From the human T2T-CHM13v2.0 reference genome, Homo sapiens, in the NCBI RefSeq assembly GCF_009914755.1, contig NC_060933.1: a stretch of DNA of 64,000 nt; one strand, written 5' to 3'. This document shows positions 31,956-49,577 of the stretch, in pieces. Position 1 is the stretch's first letter. Each line of letters begins with the position of its first letter. The notes under the pieces were generated by a model. It had not been told where the DNA came from. It did no database searches and saw only the letters and a program-made list of their open reading frames with translations. The translations under genes were made by a program, and so were the position numbers.

Positions 31956-32233
31956 GAAGAAGTAATTTTTTGTTGTTGTTGTTCTGTGGGTTTTTTGGGT
32001 TGTTGTTAGTCTCTCTCTATAGTGAAAGGCAGAGAACAAGAATACTTTGTAGATTTGTCTCACATTTGGTAGAAGGCAGAAACTCTATGTTATGTAAAGT
32101 TAGTAGAATACAAGTGAGGTAGGCTTAAGTAAGGTAAGGCACATAATAATTGCTGAGATGGGGAAATGACTTTTGAATTCCTTCAAAAAAGTATTTTCAA
32201 AAATTATCTGCTGCTTCTTTGTGGTTTTCTTAG

Positions 32234-32269
32234 GTCACTGGACCTATTTGGGCTGGGGAGAACAACAGA
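32234..32269 (+). CDS. UNC13B: UNC13B 36-nt alternative microexon ((C)[11 protein letters not shown](T)), phase 1-1
   Basis: ttttcttag| acceptor and A|gtacgt donor; symmetric and frame-preserving. Gives [23 protein letters not shown], similar to the recalled UNC13A segment CNWNYFGWGEQH and rodent ubMunc13-2. Confidence 0.8.
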
Positions 32270-33085
32270 GTACGTAAGAATTGAAATTCCTTATCATTTT
32301 CTTGATCTTACCCACAAAGTACATACTCCCTCTGAACTGTGAAGCTGGATATTCATGCATAGACTTCCATTTCCCTCTCCTCTCCTACTTAAATATCGGG
32401 AGACAATGACCTGTGGTGGAATGTTATATCCTTTCAGGCTGGTTTCTTGACGACTTTGTGTGTGTTTATGTGTGTTACAAATTTCAAACCAAAGTCCCAG
32501 TCATAATCCTGACAAGATCTCCTAATTTTTATTCCCCAGAGGCAAGTAGTAGCATCAGCCCCCTAGTGTGGCCTTCTCCTTTGGTCCCTTTGGCTAAGGA
32601 GTGCAGTGACCAGAAGGAGAAGGTTCATTCTAGGATGAACTAGAGTCAAGGTGATTGGTGTGCATTCTGATTTGGCTGATTTTCTTGACTAGGAGGATAT
32701 GCAGAACAGACTGCTGTCTTGGGTTTATTGGTCTAGCAAATTGTGAATGCCATTTCAGCCAAAAACCTGCTTTTGTTAAGGAAACAAGAGGCTGAGGACA
32801 TGGCTTGGCTTTCCCTGAAGCAGCCCAGCTAAGGCCACCTTTGTTCTAGAGCTTAGAGAGTGGGCAGCCAGTTCTTTGTGGCAAAACATGTAGCCCTAGG
32901 CTGACATTACTGGTTGTGTTACCCATCTTACAGGATCTGGTTGAGTCTCAGTGATTAGGTATCCAGTAGGTACTAAGACGGGCCAAAGTTTGTCCTGTCA
33001 CTGGAATTTCTCATGAAGTCTGTGCTTTCTGTGATTTGAATCCTGAGTACTTCTGCTATTAGGAAAGTACTCAAAAGCAGCTTGA

Positions 33086-41330: not shown

Positions 41331-44300
41331 GTATGCTCAGAAATATGATACACTAGATAGAAGAAGAAAAAAGAAATCCTTATACAATCATTTTGAAGAC
41401 AGTGAAAGAAGGCAATATGGTGAGAGATCTGAAACTAAGACTAACTACAAAAGTACATATTCTAATACTGAAAATTGTACCCTTTGCCATACTGAAAAGA
41501 AACAAAATATGGGGTACCCAGTTTTGTACCCCTACAAAAATGGATTTGTGGTTAAGAGTGGCATGCAGCGCATTAAGTTGGAAAGTCATGATTATGATCT
41601 GTCCAGTTGTTTAAGGCACTGTGAAAAGTCATCTGGCTCAAACCAGCATGTCACTAATTTTACCTCATTAGATATTCTTGAAGATTCTACTAGTAGTACT
41701 TCTGATGAACTTCTGGGTTCCCCCATTTCTGATAAGCAGGAAAATTTACAGTCACCAACATGGCATTCATCCAATGTCCACCATATTGGAGATTTTCCTG
41801 AGGAATATTATGTAGCAAATTCAGCATTGCCATTACAAAGGATGAATTGTGATGCAAAAACACTTGGAGATCTGTCTGAGTGCTCTATAGAAGAGATAAC
41901 CCCTTCCTCTATTGAGGAGCCCAAGGAGGACCGTATTGATACAATGGATGAGCTTCAGTGTTTGGTAGAAACGGTGTCAGAATATTTAGCAGAGAAGGAA
42001 GAGGAGATTAATAGATTTGGTTCACTTTCAAAAACTAAAAAATCACATAAACAAAATAGTACTCTTGATGCAGAACAGAGAACGCCTGGGGATCAAATAC
42101 CACCTTTAACTATTGTCAAGAATGACAAGGACACGGCCATCTCTTTCCCTGAGTTGACTGGAGTACAATGTGCTGTTGGTTCTTTGTTTAGTTCACTCAC
42201 AGAAAAAGTGGGTTCAGGCACAAAGCATCTAACAAACTCTGTGGAAAAGTTGGTTTCCTTAGTTCCAGAAAAAACAGAAACTCTTAATCAAATAGAGGCA
42301 ATTAATTTGGGATCTAAACCCAGAGCCATGGCAGTATTGGGGAAGGATCTTTCCATGCAATCTCCATTATCCTCTCAAAAAGATGATAATGTGAATATAG
42401 ACAGACATAGAAAAACCTCTGAAAATGAGCACATGGGTAATAAAACTGGGAGTTTATACTTTCAGAATACAACAGAAAGTATTGCAAAGGACTTGGCTCC
42501 ACAGAGTCAGAGTTCAGTTATAAAGTCGGTTTTCAGCAGGTTAAATCCATTGAAGATCTTTTCAGAAAAGGAGGAAACAAAAAAAGATGATGACCAGAGT
42601 AAGCCACCAAGAAAAGAAAGCTTTGTTGAGTGTGGTTTGGAGTTAAATAAAAGGGAAGGCACTCTTGACAATTACAGTAGTAGCATCATTGCTTTAAATG
42701 GGAGTGATGAAGAAACTACGGGCTGGTTCCAGATGCCCACAAGTGAGAATTTGTTGTCCTCCCAAGTAACCAGTGAACCTTCAAACTTAGTTAGTTCTGC
42801 AAGTAAAAATGATGAGAGTCTATTGGAAGAAAAACTCTGTATAGATCTGTCTCTTTTACCAGATCAACAAAAAATATGTGCCAAAGATACTCCAGGACAT
42901 CCTTGTATAGCTGGCAGTAGAACTGCAAATAAAGAGGTATTTTCAAAGCCATTAGAGGAGGACAAAGTTACAGGTAATGATGATTTCCTTGAGCCACTCA
43001 GAAAATCATTTAGCCAGTTTTTGCTCACTTCCCCTGAGACTTGTTCAAAGGAAAGTTTGTCAGAACCTGTGAAAATTCGCCAGGTGGAGGAAGATGGTTT
43101 AGAAAGGGGCTCTAAGAAAGATGGTCATTCCTTTTCCTTTAGTGGAAAACTAAATCTTCCATTTTTTAGAAGTCTTGGTCATTCTGAAAAGCAACAGGAG
43201 TTAAAAGAGAAAGGAAGCATTTTTCCTTTGTTTAAATTTTCTTTCACTGACAGCAAGGTTACTGTTAATGACCAGAGTTTACGTGGCTCAGCAGTAACCA
43301 CTGATGAGGAGAGCAAAAAAAATTGCCATGAAGATACCAAACATAGTTCAATAAAATCTAGTTCTGTTCCAAATATTCATAGTGATCTAGGAAAATTTGA
43401 CAGTACAGAGGAATTTAAAAAGAATGACCAGATAAATTGTCCTGAAGATGCCAAACTTAATTCAATAAAATCTAGTTCAGTTCCAAATATTCATGATGAT
43501 CTAGAGAAGTTTGACAGTATAAAGGAATTTAATAAGAATGACCAAGTAAATTGTCCTGAAGATGCCAAACTTAGTTCAATAAAATCTGGTTCAGCTCCAA
43601 ATACTCAGGATAATCTAGGGAAATTTGACAGTACAGAGGAATTTAATCAGAATGACCAAATAAATAGTCCTGAAGATGCCAAATTTAATATAATAAAGTC
43701 TGATTCAGTTACAAATATTAATAATGATCTGGGGAAATTTGGGAATATAGAGGAATTAAATCCAAGTGACCACACAGCAGGACAGAATTTTGAAAGGGAT
43801 GGCTTAGCCATCCCTGGAGTTGTGCCCAAAGAACATATAACTTCAGATCCTTTAGGAGAAGATAAGAATCTTATACAAGCAGCATCTTCAGTAGCATCAG
43901 ACTCTTCATTAGAGTGTATTTCTACCACTTCCAAATCCACTTTGGTTAATGAAATTAATGAAGATGAGGTTATAGATAAGACTTCCAAGAAAAATACCCA
44001 AGGAAGCTTCCTTTCTGGCCTGTTTAATAGGTTTTCTTCTGCTGAAAATTTGTCTAGTCAAGAATTAAATTTGAAAAATGATGACTCCCATCACAAGAAT
44101 AATACCCCAGGTTTAATCTCTGGAATATTTAACCTGCTATCAAATAGCGGTATGATTGATCATAAACCAGAGGAAGCAAAGTTCATGTCTTTAGGCAACA
44201 TGAAGAGTTTGAATGGAGATAACCATTTATCCTTGGATGAGGTCCCTGCTACTTCATGTGTGACTTCTGAGAACCCGAAGAACCATGTTGAAAAACATGA

Positions 44301-47300
44301 AACTTCTAGCTTCATAGAAGCCTCCTTATTACCTAAAGAAAACATACCATTATCTGATGCTGGGGATGATAATCATTATTGTTCCCCTACAGAGAAAAAC
44401 CAGCAAAGTGAAAAGCATCACCCCTCCTCTGAGAACATTGTACTTCACTGTGCTCCAAGTGCTCAGCTAGGTTTTTTGGAGAAATCTATGGCTAAGAGGC
44501 AAATGCCAAACCATGTTCTTGAGGCAAAACTACATGAAAATTCAAACAAGTTAAATTCACCTGTACTAAATACCAACATTCTCAATAAATCAAACAACTA
44601 TCAGGCTTTTGAAGAGATGAACAGTCCTTTCTGTTTTGAATGGGACTCTGACATAAAAGATTTGTCTAAAAATTCCAGAAAACTTCAGCCAGTTTATTAT
44701 ATGTTAAATCAAAATAGATTTCTATCAGCCGATGCTTGCTTGTGGCTTGACTCAGAAAACTCAGTGATAAATTTTTGCCAAAAAGATCAAAATGCAAACA
44801 TCTTGGAGTGGAGAACAAATCCAAACAGTGTCATTTGGTGTGACTTACCATATGAATCATTCAATCAGTTAGCATTTAATGAAGATTACTTATTAAGAGG
44901 TGATGTGTGGGCAGCTAACTCATTATATGGAAACTCTGGTCCTCTTCCAATTAATGAGGCTAATAATTCACTAGAAGAATTACCCATTGACTTAAGTTCT
45001 TCATCAGATCATGAAAAGACTACATGCCCCGTAGTTGATCAAGAATCATTAAGAATGGATGAAAACTTTGTTTTTTCAAGTTTTGGTTATGAGTACCAGG
45101 AATGGTTGTCATGTCTTGAACATGGAGTGTGGTGGCCATCAGAGGATGGGGATTATGGATATTATATGTTTCATGATGGTCAATATATCTATTCTCTTCT
45201 CACTGATTCTACTGGGCAGTATGCATATTTATTTATACCTGATTCTTATCAAGAGTATTTGGATTGTGATTTACAGACAAATGGTCTATCAAGTATTACG
45301 TTGGATGACAGCATTATTTCTGCCTGTAGTTTTAAAGTACTTGATAAGGAAGATGAAATATTTTGGTATGTTGAAGAGGAACCAATTGATGACCCTCTTG
45401 ATTTATCTTTAGCTTTGCCAAGAAGTGAGGAACCATTGTATCTAAATTTAGAAACCTTTTCACAAGTACTTAAAGAGTCAAGTTGTGACCAAAGCGATCA
45501 GCCACTAGATTTTTCAGGCTATAATCGTCAAAAGTTTAAAGGAGACTTTAGATCTTTCAAAGAAAGGCCGTGTGGTTCTGAAGACGCTGAATGTACATTA
45601 GATCTCAGAAATCAGCCCCAAACTATTAGTAATCATGTCTCAAGCAGAGATCAAATTATAGAGAGAGATAAAAACCAGCCTCTAGCTGAAGATTCATCAG
45701 TTCACCTTTCCAGTTTCCATTGGCTTCAGTCTTCTGTTGAAGAAGTTACCACTTTGGTTCATCCTGAAAATATGACTAAAGGCTCACAACAAGCAGAAGA
45801 GACATCATTAGTGAACAAAGTGGCTTCAGTATTTTCTGTTTTGGGTGCCTCAGTTGGAAGTACTTTGAAGTTTGATAAGAGTGAATCCTTAGAGGCTTTG
45901 GCCATGCAGAAAGTGAATCAGCAGTCAGATTTAGCAGAGCTCACAAATGATGGCTTTCAGTCATTAATCATGAGTAAGCAATTAGAGGGTAACTCCCCAA
46001 ATGTGGAAAAAAGTCTTCTTAAGGATTCAGAAAGACAGATAGTATCCAATGTTCAGCATCCAGAATTGATCAAAAATATAAGGCAAGAATTCTCTTTAAA
46101 TAAAAACAACCATGTGAAAAAGCAAAGTTTGTTAAAATCTGGTTTCCAGGTAAGCCAAACAACTCCTCAGGCTAAATCAGGTGTAAAAGATGATGAAATC
46201 ATTACAACAGACTCTATTTCAGTTTCTCCTGCACCTCAGCATAGTGGGGATGAGCGTGAGAATTATGAGCTTCCCCAGGGCCAGTCATCCAAAGAGTCTG
46301 ATAAAACATTATTTAAAAGTTCATTGAAACTCTTCAGTCAAGAAGAATCGTCAGTTAGTATGACAGCAAATGAAAAACAGTCATCTGGATTTTTGAATCT
46401 TTTTAAGACTCAGGTGAATAAAGAAGGATCACCAAACTTAGAAAAGATTGGTGATACAAATGTCAAGATACCACCTCAAGAAAAGAAAGAATCTTCTGGT
46501 GTTTCAAATTTTTGGGGTACCCTTGGGGATTTCTTTAAAGCCAATGTATCTCCTATACAGACAACTGAAAATACGTCTGTTTCTTCAATGACTATTAAGG
46601 ATGAGGTCAGGTCAAGTCCTACTCCTATGGAGCTAGCTAGCCAGGGTGCTGGGAACTTTCCTGCTGCACCAATTTCCTCTAAAGGGAAGGCTAGAGTTAG
46701 AAGACTGAACAAACAGACTACTATCGATGACAGTAGGTTAGAGGAATCAACTAGAGGGATCCAGGGTAATGATTTGACTGAAAAAGAGGTACCATTCAGA
46801 GACCATCTAATCCAGCAGTCACCTAATTCATCTTTTTCAACAAGTAGTCTCAAAGAGTCTTCCAGGGAGTCTTCAGTAGAAACTAGTGGTGTGACTACAG
46901 TGACAGAAGTTTCAAAAAGTAATGAAATATCCTTTGATACCCTGAGCAAGAGAAATTCAAATGAACAAGATCATTTTTCTGACAAAGACTGGAGTTTCTC
47001 TATGGCTGCAACATCTTCATCTCAACCAGAGTTATCAACCAAAAAGAGTATATTTTCTTTTCTCACTGGATCTGAAAAATCTGAGAACAGAGCCTCTGCT
47101 ACTCTACCAAGAGCCAAATCTCAGGCAGAAGGGCTATTCACACTTCCTTCATTTTTTTCCACTGCTAGCTCAAGCATTAAGAAGGATGCCTCTCATAGTA
47201 GTTCTACTTTTAGTTTCTTCAGCTTGTCCTTTTTGGATCAAAAAAAGGAGACCTCTGGGGAAAAACAAAGCATTTCAACTGTTGTTCCAGTGACCTCCCA

Positions 47301-49577
47301 GCCCTGTAAGAAGACAAATGTTTTTGTAGAGAGTGGTAGCACAATGACCAGAGAAAGTTCCAGTGGTCATAGAGATAGCATAGCCCAAGAAGTAGTTCAT
47401 GAACAGCAAATGGCACCTTGTATTTCCATTAACAACACCATTGAGGTTACCTCCCTTGCAGATGAGCTCAGTGTAGACAAGGACTGTCAGGAAAAACTGA
47501 GTTCCAATATTGTACCAGGGACATCAGTGGATTTCCAGATGAATGAATTGCAAAAAGACATTATTCCTCCTTCACCAGAATTTCAGGCACAGGCTGAAAC
47601 ATTCCTCACTGGCCCAGAGAACCTTGGGATAGCTCCCCATGAAGAAGAGGCTTTCAACCACAAAGCCTTCCCCAGTGACTCACTGTCCAACTCTTTTTCA
47701 CATGCTAAACAGTTAATTGAAAAATTCAATGATTTAGACACTTGTACTAACTGCCACCAAAATGAGAAATTTACTACTGACCCAGTGAACTTGCCATTAG
47801 AAAAGGCCCCCGATGAGGTCTTACCACAGATCCTAGAGCCAGCCTCTTCCTCTCCAGAGCCAGGGTGTGCAGGGAACCTTCAGAACCAAGATGCAGATAA
47901 AGAGGAAGACAAATTTGCATTAGGCTCTTCAGTAGACATGCTTTCAGGGTTTGTGACCAAAGTGAAATCTTTCTCTGGGAGCTTAATTGAACCTCCCAAA
48001 ACACTCTCTGGACTTTTCTCCTCTCCTAAATCTCCAAAGAAAAACTCCTTTTTCTCTCTTGCTTCTGATGTATCATCTCAGCCCCTCAAAGGTGAATTAT
48101 TTGGAATTTTCAAAAGTCCCAAGCCAGAGCCATACAAACAAGAATCATCTCTCCCAGCTACTTCATGGCTTCAAAATGGTTGTTCCAGAGATGCTGTAGG
48201 ATCAGTACCTCCAGAAAGGAGAGAAGCTGCCTTTACAGCACTAAGTTCAGAATCTACTCTCAGTGACTGTAGAATGACTGTGGTTAGTGCAAAGCCAGAA
48301 TCAGATATCTTGACAGATGATCCTAAACTAACAACCAAAATGGAAGACAATAATACTCCTGAAAATATTCTGGAACCTCAACGTTCTGAAACAATTAATA
48401 CATCTTCTTTCTCGGGTGATGATACTGGGCAAGGAGTATTGTCTCTGAGTGATGAAGGAGACATGGGGATATTGCAAGCTACAGACACGGAGGCATCGTT
48501 AGAAGCAGAGAACTTTGCGCTGCCAGCACAGTTGCATCCAGATCCTACCTGCATTGCCGAAGAGCTTCCTCCTCCCATTCAGCCACCTCTTCCTCTTGAG
48601 CCAGAGCCAGCTATTCAAACTGCCTCCACAAACCAAGACTTACTGGAGCTGCATCCAGCCAGTTCACTAGAAACTGATACTATGCTGTTCAATGATGCAA
48701 GTGTGAGCCAGAGCACCACTCTGGAAACCGAAGGGCACTTTTCTCATCCTCTGCTGGAGGACCCTGTGCTTGCTGCCAGAGAAAGTTGTGAGATAATTCA
48801 TGCCCAGAAAGATCCACCTGTAGTACCCCAGGAAACAGAGCAGTCAAGACCACGTTTTGAGATCCCAAATGTGACCACTTGGCCAAAGCTTCGTTTGCCA
48901 TCCTCTGCTACTAACCATGGGAAACCACTGAGCTCTTTCTTTTCCTCACCTCTCCCCTCTGGCAATAGAGCAGCAGAGACTGGTTTAATGTCCAGTTTTA
49001 AGAAGTTGTCAACTCTATTTGAGGGAAGTAGTGAGGGGAAAGGGAGTGTATTAGCAAGTGATTCAAAACTAGGATTTGGAAAGGTAGATCTTTCATTTCC
49101 ATGGCCAAAAGAGAACAAAGGGGTCCCTGAACAAATGCCTACAGAATCCTCCCCTCCAGTTTTAGTTACTAGCAGTGATCAGGACCTTAACTCCAGTGAG
49201 GCTAACAAAGCTTTGAAGTCTTCTCAAATATCTGGGGCCAGTGCTCAGCCAGGTAAAGTCTACACTCAGCCCTCTGGGACCTCTGAGCAGCTGGTGGCCA
49301 GTCCAGAGGTCTGTGCTCAGGGGCTTTCAGGGTCTGGAGAAGGGGGAAACCAGCAGGAAATCTCAGCATCTGGAGAACACTGGGATACCAAAGCCAACCT
49401 GTCTAGCCCCGCCTGTCCTTCAGGGAAACATGAGGAAGAACCCTCCACTGTCTCTGAGATATTTCACCAGCTAGAAAAACAAGAAGAGGAGGCAGTACCT
49501 GCCAGTACTGACTCTGATTTGAATGTACAGCAGCCAGTCACTCTGAATGACATCAAGGAGCCCATGACCAACAAAAG
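41331..49577 (+). CDS. UNC13B: UNC13B giant alternative coding exon, 8247 nt / 2749 codons; the frame runs on to TAA at 49654-49656 if unspliced
   Basis: 2829-aa ORF in the track with no TE-like sequence. The ttctgttttctccag| acceptor is in phase with the upstream exon. A phase-2 AG|gc boundary at 49577 joins in frame to 51628, and 1591+2749=4340 aa matches the recalled length of the long UNC13B isoform. The 3' boundary is less certain than the 5'. Confidence 0.85.
43321..43770 (+). repeat. Coding tandem repeat, 114 bp (38 aa) x ~4, inside the giant exon
   Basis: Units start at 43321, 43435, 43549 and 43663; approximate consensus NCPEDAKLxSIKSSSVPNIHxDLGKFDSTEEFNKNDQI. Confidence 0.95.

What the first reader, a model, noticed from the sequence alone, without database searches (positions are those of the whole stretch)
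44983..45609. Cluster of PxDLS-type CtBP/RIBEYE-binding motifs
Seen: PIDLS (44983-44997), PLDLS (45394-45408) and PLDFS (45502-45516), plus variants PLYLN (45433) and TLDLR (45595), within ~210 aa in acidic context. Distant variants are CIDLS (42838) and KVDLS (49081). Known: PLDLS is the canonical ligand of the CtBP cleft; the RIBEYE B domain is essentially CtBP2; Bassoon/Piccolo-family proteins use PxDLS-like motifs. Inference: multivalent docking of Munc13-2 to ribbons or presynaptic CtBP1.
Basis: partly seen in the sequence, partly recalled or inferred. Interest (0 to 1): 0.85.

Follow-up and report, generated by a model that had tools for sequence, protein, structure and literature searches.

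The report
Conserved CtBP-type motifs in giant UNC13B exon
A huge, barely studied exon of the synaptic priming gene UNC13B carries short PLDLS-type sequences, kept from sharks to humans, that look like docking sites for CtBP proteins and the synaptic-ribbon protein RIBEYE, though no binding has been shown.

Summary
All seven strings are in frame at the stated coordinates in the 8,247-nt cassette exon of UNC13B (window 41331-49577). That exon is used only by the 4,340-aa RefSeq Select isoform.

Four strings are strongly conserved; three are not.
- **PLDLS (45394):** close to invariant across jawed vertebrates and one of the slowest-evolving 5-mers of the region.
- **PIDLS (45013 is not its place; it lies at 44983):** canonical P[IMVL]DLS in sharks, sturgeon, gar, bowfin and tetrapods, degenerate in most teleosts.
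- **PLDFS and TLDLR:** conserved, but outside the PxDLS/T consensus.
- **PLYLN, CIDLS, KVDLS:** not conserved as motifs.

The four sit in a module of about 225 aa around a Trp/Tyr-rich core. The module has no Pfam family, no PDB relative and no human paralog.

My best reading (0.55) is that PLDLS and PIDLS are ligands of the CtBP-family cleft (CtBP1, CtBP2, RIBEYE B domain). Published imaging puts Munc13 at the arciform density, not on detached ribbons.

My literature searches found no paper linking Munc13-2 to PxDLS or CtBP. I rate this a new member of a known kind, interest 0.6.

The parts
41331..49577 (+). Giant in-frame cassette exon of UNC13B: 8247 nt (3 x 2749), residues 254-3003 of the 4340-aa isoform.
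   Evidence: RefSeq table: present only in NM_001371189.2 ('select') and skipped in NM_006377.6 (1591 aa). It is an open frame of 2748 codons. The list of ORFs of at least 150 aa shows nothing else over the module on either strand. Orthologous open frames were found in 204 predicted proteins other than the window's own, from sharks to primates.
44944..45621 (+). Conserved module (exon aa 1205-1430), the best-conserved island of the exon. It holds four short motifs around an aromatic core.
   Evidence: It is the best BLASTP segment of the exon against catshark (aa 1199-1509, E 6e-44) and sturgeon (E 6e-50). The top 50-aa window of the exon is aa 1251-1300, identity 0.74. There is no Pfam family, no PDB relative and no paralog in the human genome.
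44983..44997 (+). M1, PIDLS (full-length P1472): a canonical PxDLS-type motif in an acidic, polar context.
   Evidence: P[IMVLF][DN]LS in 121 of 123 sequences. It is degenerate in most teleosts: PPNLS, APSLS, PPHLS, with LSYS[SA] kept. Identity 0.87 against flanks 0.42; site rate 0.60 against 1.49. It lies 72 aa from the core in 102 of 122 sequences.
45124..45228 (+). Trp/Tyr-rich core (GVWWPSEDGDYGYYMFHDGQYIYSLLTDSTGQYAY). It looks like two D-x-x-G-Q-Y-phi-Y hairpin units and is probably folded.
   Evidence: It holds invariant W, G, D, Y and LTD columns and the slowest 5-mers of the module. It is the most aromatic stretch of the exon, 32.5% W/Y/F in 40 aa against 6.3% overall. The fold was not predicted because the tool was off.
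45328..45366 (+). Conserved 'CGFKVPL..EDELFW' segment (human SFKVLDKEDEIFW) between the core and M2.
   Evidence: F, K, V nearly invariant and W invariant; alignment.
45394..45408 (+). M2, PLDLS (full-length P1609): the universal canonical motif.
   Evidence: P[LIV]DL[ST] in 119 of 123 sequences; three frogs have PLDLA. In 78 fish sequences with a recognisable core: PLDLS 71, PLNLS 3, PLDLT 2, PFDLS 1, none 1. P, L and S are invariant in 35 species; site rate 0.31 against flanks 0.86, the 4th slowest 5-mer start listed among the 310 human sites. A variable-length acidic linker with indels lies directly upstream.
45439..45480 (+). Conserved amphipathic-looking segment 'MNLETFSQMFEES' (human YLNLETFSQVLKES) between M2 and M3. 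The human PLYLN overlaps its start.
   Evidence: N, F, S, E and S columns conserved. M2-to-M3 spacing is 36 aa in 109 of 122 sequences. PLYLN itself has identity 0.33.
45502..45516 (+). M3, PLDFS (full-length P1645): conserved, but Phe at position 4 is outside the PxDLS/T consensus.
   Evidence: PL[DN][FY][ST] in 122 of 123 sequences. Teleosts lose the P: [AGP][LVM]DF[ST]. Identity 0.99 against flanks 0.52.
45541..45552 (+). Extra semi-conserved phi-D-phi-R unit (human GDFR; birds VDFR; lizards and frogs VDLR), 12 aa after M3.
   Evidence: 39 sequences match [LFV]D[LF][RTKS] at +12.
45595..45609 (+). M4, TLDLR (full-length T1676): a conserved LDL[R] unit without proline. Teleosts have [VI][ILM]DLS here.
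   Evidence: [LFV]D[LF][RTKS] in all 123 sequences; teleost forms. D and L are invariant in 35 species; site rate 0.59 against flanks 1.73.
45433..45447 (+). PLYLN: not a conserved PxDLS-like motif.
   Evidence: Identity 0.33, 40th percentile. Other vertebrates read LMNMN here.
42838..42852 (+). CIDLS: not conserved.
   Evidence: Identity 0.30, 33rd percentile.
49081..49095 (+). KVDLS: only K, D and S are partly conserved. It lies in another conserved island.
   Evidence: Identity 0.60, 84th percentile; per-residue .93/.07/.93/.29/.79.

Best explanation
The 4340-aa UNC13B isoform keeps the RIM-binding C2A end and the C1-C2B-MUN-C2C priming machinery. Between them it carries a 2749-residue, mostly low-complexity insert. 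In the middle of the insert sits a module of about 225 residues: a small aromatic, probably beta-rich core flanked by short linear motifs in acidic, polar linkers.

I propose that M2 (PLDLS, universal in jawed vertebrates) and M1 (P[IMVL]DLS, canonical outside teleosts) bind as extended strands in the PXDLS/T cleft of CtBP-family proteins: CtBP1, CtBP2 and the RIBEYE B domain. CtBPs are dimers or tetramers and RIBEYE forms lattices with exposed clefts. Two motifs about 140 residues apart could therefore engage two clefts at once and turn weak single-peptide affinity into avid binding. M3 and M4 (phi-D-[LF]-[S/T/R]) may add weak sites or serve another partner.

The result would be a physical link between a vesicle-priming factor and presynaptic CtBP1 (already bound to Bassoon and Piccolo), or the base of the ribbon.

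Shown here: the motifs, their frame, their conservation, their spacing and the absence of paralogs. Inferred: the partner, the bivalent mode and the cellular site.
For: - The motifs exist in frame.
- Conservation is far above the flanks and above the exon as a whole.
- M2 is P-[LIVF]-[DN]-L-[ST] in 119 of 123 tetrapod, shark and sturgeon sequences and in 77 of 78 fish sequences. M1 fits in 121 of 123.
- Accepted substitutions (I/M/V/L/F; D to N; S to T or A) match the PXDLS/T definition quoted in PMC10760060 and, from recall, known CtBP ligands.
- The flanks are acidic and polar, with indels next to M2, as expected for an accessible linear motif.
- The compartment fits. CtBP1 is at conventional and ribbon synapses and binds Bassoon (PMC2171818). 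RIBEYE clefts stay accessible in ribbons and bind PXDLS peptides. ubMunc13-2 sits at the ribbon base.
- Multivalency matters for PXDLS-RIBEYE binding: a fragment with one motif is inactive and one with six is active (bioRxiv 10.64898/2026.04.28.721253). Single peptides bind weakly and full proteins tightly.
- A weak lead only: the nearest ESM-Atlas clusters are adenovirus E1A, the prototype PLDLS protein, at score 0.76.
Against: - No binding experiment and no complex model; the structure predictor was off.
- M3 and M4 are as conserved as M1 and M2 yet do not fit the consensus. With teleosts included, only the D-[LF]-[S/T/R] part is slow-evolving in M1, M3 and M4. The selected feature may therefore not be the CtBP motif as such.
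- Most teleosts have ribbons but have lost canonical M1.
- Spacing is near-fixed: M1-to-core 72 aa, M2-to-M3 36 aa. Conservation runs continuously between the motifs. Both could mean a folded domain in which these strands are buried.
- Munc13 immunosignal stays at the arciform density when ribbons detach, and Munc13 was not co-precipitated with the Bassoon complex that contained RIBEYE.
- Munc13-2 loss has little effect on photoreceptor transmission (passages).
- The field treats ubMunc13-2 as about 190 kDa. I found no evidence that the giant exon is included in retina, cochlea or brain.
- The orthologs are mostly gene predictions.
Confidence: 0.55

Rival explanations
1. The four or five phi-D-[LF]-[S/T/R] units and the aromatic core form one folded or fold-upon-binding domain of unknown function. 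It would be either an intramolecular scaffold or a platform for a partner other than CtBP, and the PxDLS match of two units would be incidental.
For: - All four units share D-[LF]-[S/T/R] as their slow-evolving part. The proline is invariant only in M2.
- M3 and M4 are off-consensus yet equally conserved.
- Spacings are near-invariant: 72 aa in 102 of 122 and 36 aa in 109 of 122 sequences.
- Conserved segments fill the gaps between motifs.
- Teleosts lose canonical M1 but keep 'LSYSA'.
- The core is highly aromatic, as a folded unit would be.
Against: - Motif columns are much more conserved than the 10 residues on either side.
- Indel-prone acidic linkers abut M1, M2 and M4.
- M2 keeps exactly the five residues that define the CtBP ligand in 35 of 35 species sampled, apart from L/I/V/F and D/N.
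- No known domain family matches: Pfam 0 hits, PDB profile 0 hits, Atlas no usable hit for the core.
Confidence: 0.28
2. M1 and M2 are another class of linear motif that overlaps the same letters. One candidate is a SUMO-interacting motif: a hydrophobic core followed by a Ser/acidic run, as in PIDLSSSSD. The other is a leucine-rich nuclear-export-like signal, as in LEELPIDL or LDLSLAL.
For: From the sequence: hydrophobic-x-hydrophobic cores with acidic and Ser flanks. The class definitions are recalled, not tested by any search.
Against: Neither class requires the proline at position 1 or the Ser/Thr at position 5, yet both are invariant in M2. The upstream leucines of the putative export signal are only 0.5-0.6 conserved. 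The SSSS run of human M1 is SYSS in most species.
Confidence: 0.07
3. Chance strings in a long Ser/Asp/Leu/Pro-rich disordered exon, with no function.
For: The patterns were defined after seeing the data. P.DL alone is not enriched (2 against 0.90). Three of the seven listed strings are indeed unconserved.
Against: Four motifs are retained from sharks to humans at the 97.5th to 99.8th percentile of exon 5-mers, with site rates well below their flanks.
Confidence: 0.02

Closest known systems
Piccolino / Piccolo C-terminal PXDLS array (RIBEYE B-domain ligand)
   Same: Both are giant, largely disordered presynaptic proteins with several vertebrate-conserved PXDLS/T-type motifs, including degenerate 'PXDLS-like' ones. 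In Piccolino the motifs bind the RIBEYE cleft and binding depends on multivalency (passages). Piccolino also has an ALPS motif that binds vesicle-like liposomes, and the UNC13B exon has six ALPS-like segments.
   Different: Piccolino has seven motifs separated by unstructured spacers of about 25 and 45 residues. UNC13B has two canonical motifs about 137-145 residues apart around a conserved aromatic core, plus off-consensus units at 36 and about 31 residues. There is no sequence homology: the module has no paralog in the human genome. Piccolino's binding has been shown; UNC13B's has not.
Bassoon residues 1653-2087 (CtBP1 / RIBEYE-B binding region)
   Same: [quoted passage not shown] It is said to contain PXDLS motifs.
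   Different: The interaction was shown by yeast two-hybrid, co-immunoprecipitation and a mutant phenotype. Munc13 was not detected in those immunoprecipitates.
Adenovirus E1A C-terminal PLDLS and cellular repressors with PxDLS motifs (ZEB, RIP140, FOG, Knirps; recalled)
   Same: The pentapeptides are the same (PLDLS; PIDLS and PMDLS variants). They lie in acidic disordered context, and some of these proteins carry two or three motifs. E1A clusters were the nearest Atlas neighbours, at a low score of 0.76.
   Different: Those are nuclear transcription regulators and UNC13B is a cytoplasmic presynaptic priming factor. The list of cellular examples is recalled and comes from no call.

Membership tests
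CtBP-binding PXDLS/T short linear motif | Pentapeptide P-x-D-L-S/T; a hydrophobic residue at position 2 and D/N at position 3 are tolerated. | tested here: met
   Met for M1 (PIDLS) and M2 (PLDLS). The definition is as quoted in PMC10760060; the finer tolerance set is recalled from ELM. Not met for PLDFS (F at position 4), TLDLR (no P, R at position 5), PLYLN, CIDLS and KVDLS.
CtBP-binding PXDLS/T short linear motif | The motif is conserved above its disordered flanks. | tested here: met
   Identity 0.87/0.42 (M1) and 0.96/0.53 (M2). Site rates 0.60/1.49 and 0.31/0.86. M1 is degenerate in most teleosts.
CtBP-binding PXDLS/T short linear motif | The motif is accessible: it lies in a disordered or extended segment and is not buried. 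| tested here: inconclusive
   The flanks are 60-72% polar or disorder-promoting residues with net charge -5 and -7, and indels lie next to M2. Against that, the spacing is fixed and the neighbours are conserved.
CtBP-binding PXDLS/T short linear motif | Direct binding in the CtBP/RIBEYE cleft, lost on DL>AS changes or on cleft mutation. | not testable with these tools
   This needs ITC, pull-down or a complex model. No paper linking the two was found.
CtBP-binding PXDLS/T short linear motif | The partner and the motif-bearing isoform are present in the same compartment. | not testable with these tools
   From the literature only: CtBP1 and RIBEYE are at synapses, and ubMunc13-2 is at the ribbon base. 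Exon inclusion in those cells is unknown, and Munc13 does not follow detached ribbons.
Multivalent PXDLS array of the Piccolino type (RIBEYE filament cross-linker) | Three or more binding-competent motifs on unstructured spacers of tens of residues. | tested here: not met
   Only two canonical motifs, 133-146 aa apart, with a conserved aromatic core between them. The other units are off-consensus. Piccolino features are as described.
Known protein domain families (Pfam) and solved folds | A significant profile match. | tested here: not met
   Pfam gave 0 families at E up to 10 for aa 1150-1520. The PDB profile search gave 0 at E up to 10. The Atlas gave no usable hit for the core.

The most novel reading that the evidence does not exclude
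The 8.2-kb cassette exon turns Munc13-2 into a Piccolino-like tether of about 480 kDa. The PLDLS-centred module would dock it on RIBEYE or CtBP1 assemblies, while the six or more conserved ALPS-like amphipathic segments of the same exon would hold synaptic vesicles. The priming machinery (C1-C2B-MUN-C2C) would then sit on, or at the foot of, the ribbon. That would give a molecular basis for vesicle priming 'on the ribbon'. It would also describe a second protein built on the PXDLS-plus-ALPS plan, arisen independently of Piccolo.
Probability: 0.12. Interest if true: 0.85.

Novelty: new member of a known kind. Interest (0 to 1): 0.6.

Why it matters
Reviews state that vesicles begin to be primed while still on the ribbon and that ribbon synapses use atypical priming proteins (PMC11536687). 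[quoted passage not shown]

A deeply conserved PLDLS module in the one Munc13 isoform family found at photoreceptor and bipolar ribbons would give a simple, testable link between RIBEYE or CtBP1 and a priming factor.

It also draws attention to a 2749-residue coding exon, part of the RefSeq Select transcript, that the synapse literature I could search does not discuss. In that literature ubMunc13-2 is treated as a protein of about 190 kDa. Antibodies, knock-ins and rescue constructs based on the 1591-aa form would miss it.

If the motifs bind something other than CtBP, the module is still a new, vertebrate-wide, paralog-free element of UNC13B.

Tried and rejected
- **Structure prediction of the module (alignment A1):** No fold model, no fold search and no peptide-docking surrogate was attempted afterwards.
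- **Pfam scan of aa 1150-1520:** nothing at E up to 10.
- **PDB profile search with A1:** nothing at E up to 10.
- **ESM Atlas, whole module:** only E1A clusters at 0.76, below the 0.9 the tool calls meaningful. **Aromatic core alone, named clusters:** no usable hit.
- **Paralogs in the human genome:** the single-sequence search and the profile search found only the locus itself. Three hits at E above 5 (L002-L004) were treated as chance and not examined.
- **WW, YD-repeat and Asp-box resemblance of the core:** considered by eye. Dropped, since Pfam reports none of them.
- **First ALPS scan (14-aa windows, Eisenberg scale):** too strict, 2 segments against 0.33 expected. I replaced it with one 18-aa scan. 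Both are reported so the choice of thresholds is visible.
- **Teleosts:** they looked absent after the human and shark queries. The sturgeon query found them. Many teleost proteins listed there (4.9-5.1 thousand aa) exceed the length ceiling of the human query (1.75 x 2748 = 4809 aa), which may be part of the reason.
- **Cyclostomes and invertebrates:** none found, but the word-based, named-sources-only search cannot show absence, and all three protein searches are spent.
- **Papers:**
  - UNC13B + CtBP gave 12 papers, none about an interaction by title. I read passages of two. PMC7205035 only lists both genes as interactors of other proteins, and PMC11536687 is a review.
  - Munc13-2 + CtBP1 gave 0 papers.
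  - Munc13-2 + RIBEYE gave 8 papers.
  - Munc13 + PXDLS gave 2 reviews, both speaking of Piccolino.
  - NM_001371189 gave one paper, which used the accession for shRNA and an overexpression construct.
  - The query on 'giant exon', 'large exon' and 'long isoform' listed no UNC13B paper among the 20 shown of 228.
  - Cooper et al. 2012 (PMC6620942) and Mueller et al. 2019 (PMC6445989) are not held. What I say about them rests on other papers' citations.
- **Supplements:** supplementary tables are closed. CtBP or RIBEYE interactome lists that might name UNC13B could not be seen.
Full report
**What is there**

The finding lies inside the largest exon of UNC13B (window 41331-49577). The RefSeq table shows this 8,247-nt exon only in NM_001371189.2, the transcript flagged 'select', which encodes 4,340 aa. 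The classical 1,591-aa ubMunc13-2 transcript NM_006377.6 skips it. The exon length is 3 x 2749, so it is an in-frame cassette. It supplies residues 254-3003, between the N-terminal C2A region and the rest of the protein. The frame starting at 41332 is open for 2,748 codons. The list of ORFs of at least 150 aa shows nothing else over the module on either strand.

**The observation**

They are PIDLS 44983, PLDLS 45394, PLYLN 45433, PLDFS 45502, TLDLR 45595, CIDLS 42838 and KVDLS 49081.

Composition-preserving shuffles expect 0.13 P.DLS strings where two are seen (P 0.006), and 0.04 P[LIV]D[LFM]S where three are seen. These patterns were chosen after the fact, so I rely on conservation instead.

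**Conservation**

A word-indexed search with the exon protein, restricted to aa 1150-1480, returned 118 proteins. They were mostly annotated or predicted UNC13B, running from primates through marsupials, birds, reptiles, amphibians and a sturgeon to a catshark. Of these, 112 carry two P.DLS strings 133-146 residues apart.

A shark query added a second shark and Xenopus. A sturgeon query added gar, bowfin, eel, arowana and many teleosts, often named unc13bb. The module is therefore pan-gnathostome. No cyclostome or invertebrate was found, but the search tool cannot show absence.

The exon-wide picture comes from a 15-species alignment with mean identity to human of 0.395:

| String | 5-mer identity | Percentile |
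|---|---|---|
| PIDLS | 0.86 | 97.5 |
| PLDLS | 0.97 | 99.6 |
| PLDFS | 0.99 | 99.8 |
| TLDLR | 0.86 | 97.5 |
| PLYLN | 0.33 | 40 |
| CIDLS | 0.30 | 33 |
| KVDLS | 0.60 | 84 |

The four conserved motifs also stand out from their own flanks:

| Motif | Identity, motif / 10+10 flanks, 25 species | Site rate, motif / flanks, 35 species with teleosts, IQ-TREE JTT+G4 |
|---|---|---|
| M1 PIDLS | 0.87 / 0.42 | 0.60 / 1.49 |
| M2 PLDLS | 0.96 / 0.53 | 0.31 / 0.86 |
| M3 PLDFS | 0.99 / 0.52 | 0.45 / 0.80 |
| M4 TLDLR | 0.78 / 0.34 | 0.59 / 1.73 |

M2 is the fourth slowest 5-mer start listed among the 310 human sites; only 5-mers of the aromatic core are slower.

**Anatomy of the module**

The motifs belong to a conserved island of about 225 residues (exon aa 1205-1430, window 44944-45621). 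It is the best-matching part of the exon against shark and sturgeon. In order it contains:
- M1, P[IMVLF][DN]LS followed by (S/Y)SS.
- About 30 variable residues.
- A Trp/Tyr-rich core, GVWWPSEDGDYGYYM..DGQY.YSLLTD.TGQY.Y. It has invariant W, G, D, Y and LTD columns and is the most aromatic stretch of the exon.
- A conserved CGFKVPL..EDELFW segment.
- A variable-length acidic linker.
- M2, PLDLS.
- A conserved amphipathic-looking MNLETFSQMFEES segment.
- M3, QPLDFSGY.
- A semi-conserved K.K[VM]D[FL]R unit.
- A variable stretch.
- M4, (T)LDLR.

M1-to-core spacing is 72 aa in 102 of 122 sequences. M2-to-M3 spacing is 36 aa in 109 of 122.

The module has no Pfam family, no PDB relative by profile search, no usable Atlas neighbour for the core and no paralog in the human genome.

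**Substitution spectra**

In 123 sequences, which include many redundant primate isoforms:
- M1 is P[IMVLF][DN]LS in 121. The axolotl has LMDLS and one sequence is partial.
- M2 is P[LIV]DL[ST] in 119. Three frogs have PLDLA and one sequence is partial.
- M3 is PL[DN][FY][ST] in 122.
- M4 is [LFV]D[LF][RTKS] in all 123.

Among 83 ray-finned-fish sequences (mostly teleosts), 5 had no core recognisable by my pattern. The other 78 read as follows at M2: PLDLS 71, PLNLS 3, PLDLT 2, PFDLS 1, none 1.

M1 is canonical in gar and bowfin, AMDLS in eel and VMDLS in arowana. In most teleosts it is degenerate (PPNLS, APSLS, PPHLS), with the following LSYS[SA] kept. Teleost M3 loses its proline. Teleost M4 reads [VI][ILM]DLS.

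The common denominator of the four units is thus phi-D-[LF]-[S/T/R]. Only M2 keeps the full PxDLS in every lineage sampled.

**Interpretation**

The literature I could read defines the CtBP-family ligand as PXDLS/T, bound in a surface cleft shared by CtBP1, CtBP2 and the RIBEYE B domain. It also shows the following:
- The cleft is accessible in ribbons, where fluorescent PXDLS peptides label them.
- Piccolo and Piccolino carry a conserved PVDLT plus PXDLS-like motifs.
- Single peptides bind weakly and whole proteins tightly (passages of PMC10760060; review PMC11536687).
- Seven Piccolino PXDLS motifs cross-link RIBEYE B-domain filaments. A one-motif fragment is inactive and a six-motif fragment is potent. 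PXDLS-binding sites lie about 47 A and 58-71 A apart on adjacent filaments (bioRxiv 10.64898/2026.04.28.721253, passages).
- Bassoon residues 1653-2087 bind CtBP1 and RIBEYE-B, and CtBP1 is present at conventional synapses too (PMC2171818).
- ubMunc13-2 is the Munc13 of photoreceptor and bipolar ribbon synapses and sits in the arciform density at the ribbon base.

Against this background, M2 and M1 are credible CtBP-family ligands. A bivalent contact with a CtBP oligomer or with neighbouring RIBEYE B domains is the simplest mechanism. I give this 0.55.

**What speaks against it**

- Nothing was bound to anything here, and the structure predictor was off.
- M3 and M4 are as constrained as M1 and M2 but do not fit the consensus.
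- The fixed spacings and the continuous conservation are what a folded or fold-upon-binding domain would show.
- Teleosts, which have ribbons, mostly lack a canonical M1.
- In Bassoon-mutant photoreceptors the Munc13 signal stays with RIM2, CAST and the Ca channel at the membrane, while RIBEYE, CtBP1, Piccolo and RIM1 float away with the ribbon. Munc13 was also not detected in Bassoon immunoprecipitates that contained RIBEYE.
- Loss of Munc13-2 changes photoreceptor transmission little.
- The field assumes a protein of about 190 kDa. I found no statement on where the giant exon is expressed.

The domain rival gets 0.28, other motif classes (SUMO-interacting, export-signal-like; both recalled definitions) 0.07 and chance 0.02.

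**Novelty**

In the held library I found:
- No paper holding both Munc13-2 and CtBP1 (0 papers).
- Two papers holding Munc13 and PXDLS, both reviews that use the term for Piccolino.
- No occurrence of Munc13 in the two PXDLS-focused ribbon preprints. [quoted passage not shown]
- One paper holding the accession NM_001371189, for knock-down and overexpression in tumour cells.

Subscription papers and all supplementary tables were out of reach. I therefore file the finding as a new, predicted member of a known kind: CtBP/RIBEYE-binding PXDLS proteins of the presynapse. It is not a new kind of system.

**Seen in passing**

The rest of the exon is not featureless.
- It has a 114-nt tandem repeat (3.9 copies, 43316-43761) in a stretch with almost no identity to the non-primate species of the 15-species alignment.
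- Several other conserved islands are built around Ser/Gly-rich phi-F-S-x-L or L-S-G-L-F strings, which are enriched over shuffles.
- Six 18-residue segments have ALPS-like composition and helical moment, against 1.59 +/- 1.2 in shuffles, with 0 of 300 shuffles reaching six.
- Piccolino has just been reported to tether vesicles through an ALPS motif (PMC13394108; abstract and passages).

This prompts the boldest reading that the data allow: that the cassette exon makes Munc13-2 a second PXDLS-plus-ALPS tether. I give that 0.12.

**Verdict**

The next steps are cheap and decisive: peptide binding with DL>AS controls, recruitment to RIBEYE condensates, and exon-junction expression.

Noticed in passing
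window 43316-43761 (exon aa ~662-810): Tandem repeat of 114 nt (38 aa), 3.9 copies, 84% matches, inside the coding exon. This stretch has 0.02-0.13 identity to the non-primate species of the 15-species alignment, so it looks like a lineage-specific expansion.
   Followed up: partly
window 42151-42267, 43999-44061, 45802-45873, 46489-46551, 47917-47997, 48979-49032: Six 18-aa-scale segments with ALPS-like make-up: bulky hydrophobic residues plus Ser/Thr/Gly, few charges, helical moment at least 0.35. Shuffles give 1.59 +/- 1.2, and 0 of 300 reach six. Their identity is 0.45-0.75 against an exon mean of 0.395. An earlier, stricter scan gave 2 against 0.33. Piccolino's vesicle-binding element is an ALPS motif. 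Lipid binding is untested.
   Followed up: partly
exon aa 229, 285, 560, 894, 929, 1500, 1907, 1960, 2225, 2256, 2533, 2559 (window = 41332 + 3(aa-1)): Recurrent short strings of the type phi-F-S-x-L and L-S-G-L-F. F[STG].[LFIMW] occurs 12 times against 5.5 in shuffles, and [LIVMF][STG][STG][LIVMF]F 6 times against 0.4. Most fall in the conserved islands of the exon.
   Followed up: partly
window 41857-42306 (exon aa 176-325); also aa 1651-1700, 1926-1975, 2201-2250, 2526-2600: Further conserved islands of the giant exon, with 50-aa identity 0.54-0.68 against a mean of 0.395. Their function is unknown and they were not analysed beyond the motif scans.
   Followed up: no
window 45124-45228: The aromatic core reads like two tandem D-x-x-G-Q-Y-phi-Y hairpin units preceded by G-phi-W-W-P-S-E-D-G. 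By eye it recalls WW or YD-repeat-like beta hairpins, but no Pfam, PDB or Atlas match was obtained.
   Followed up: partly
orthologs P0038, P0046, P0071-P0076, P0095, P0123, P0128, P0136, P0201 and others: In many genomes the giant exon is annotated as a separate 'uncharacterized protein LOC...', or is named 'microtubule-associated protein futsch-like', 'mucin-2' or 'serine-rich adhesin for platelets-like'. Automatic pipelines often fail to join it to UNC13B.
   Followed up: no
window 32184-32384: RefSeq lists an MPRA 'silencer' fragment that overlaps the small alternative coding exon 32234-32269. That exon is not part of NM_001371189.2.
   Followed up: no
module, window 44929-45636: By language-model features, the nearest ESM-Atlas clusters are adenovirus 'Early E1A protein' clusters (score 0.76, below the tool's 0.9 threshold). 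E1A is the prototype PLDLS-bearing CtBP ligand. This is a curiosity and a weak lead only.
   Followed up: no
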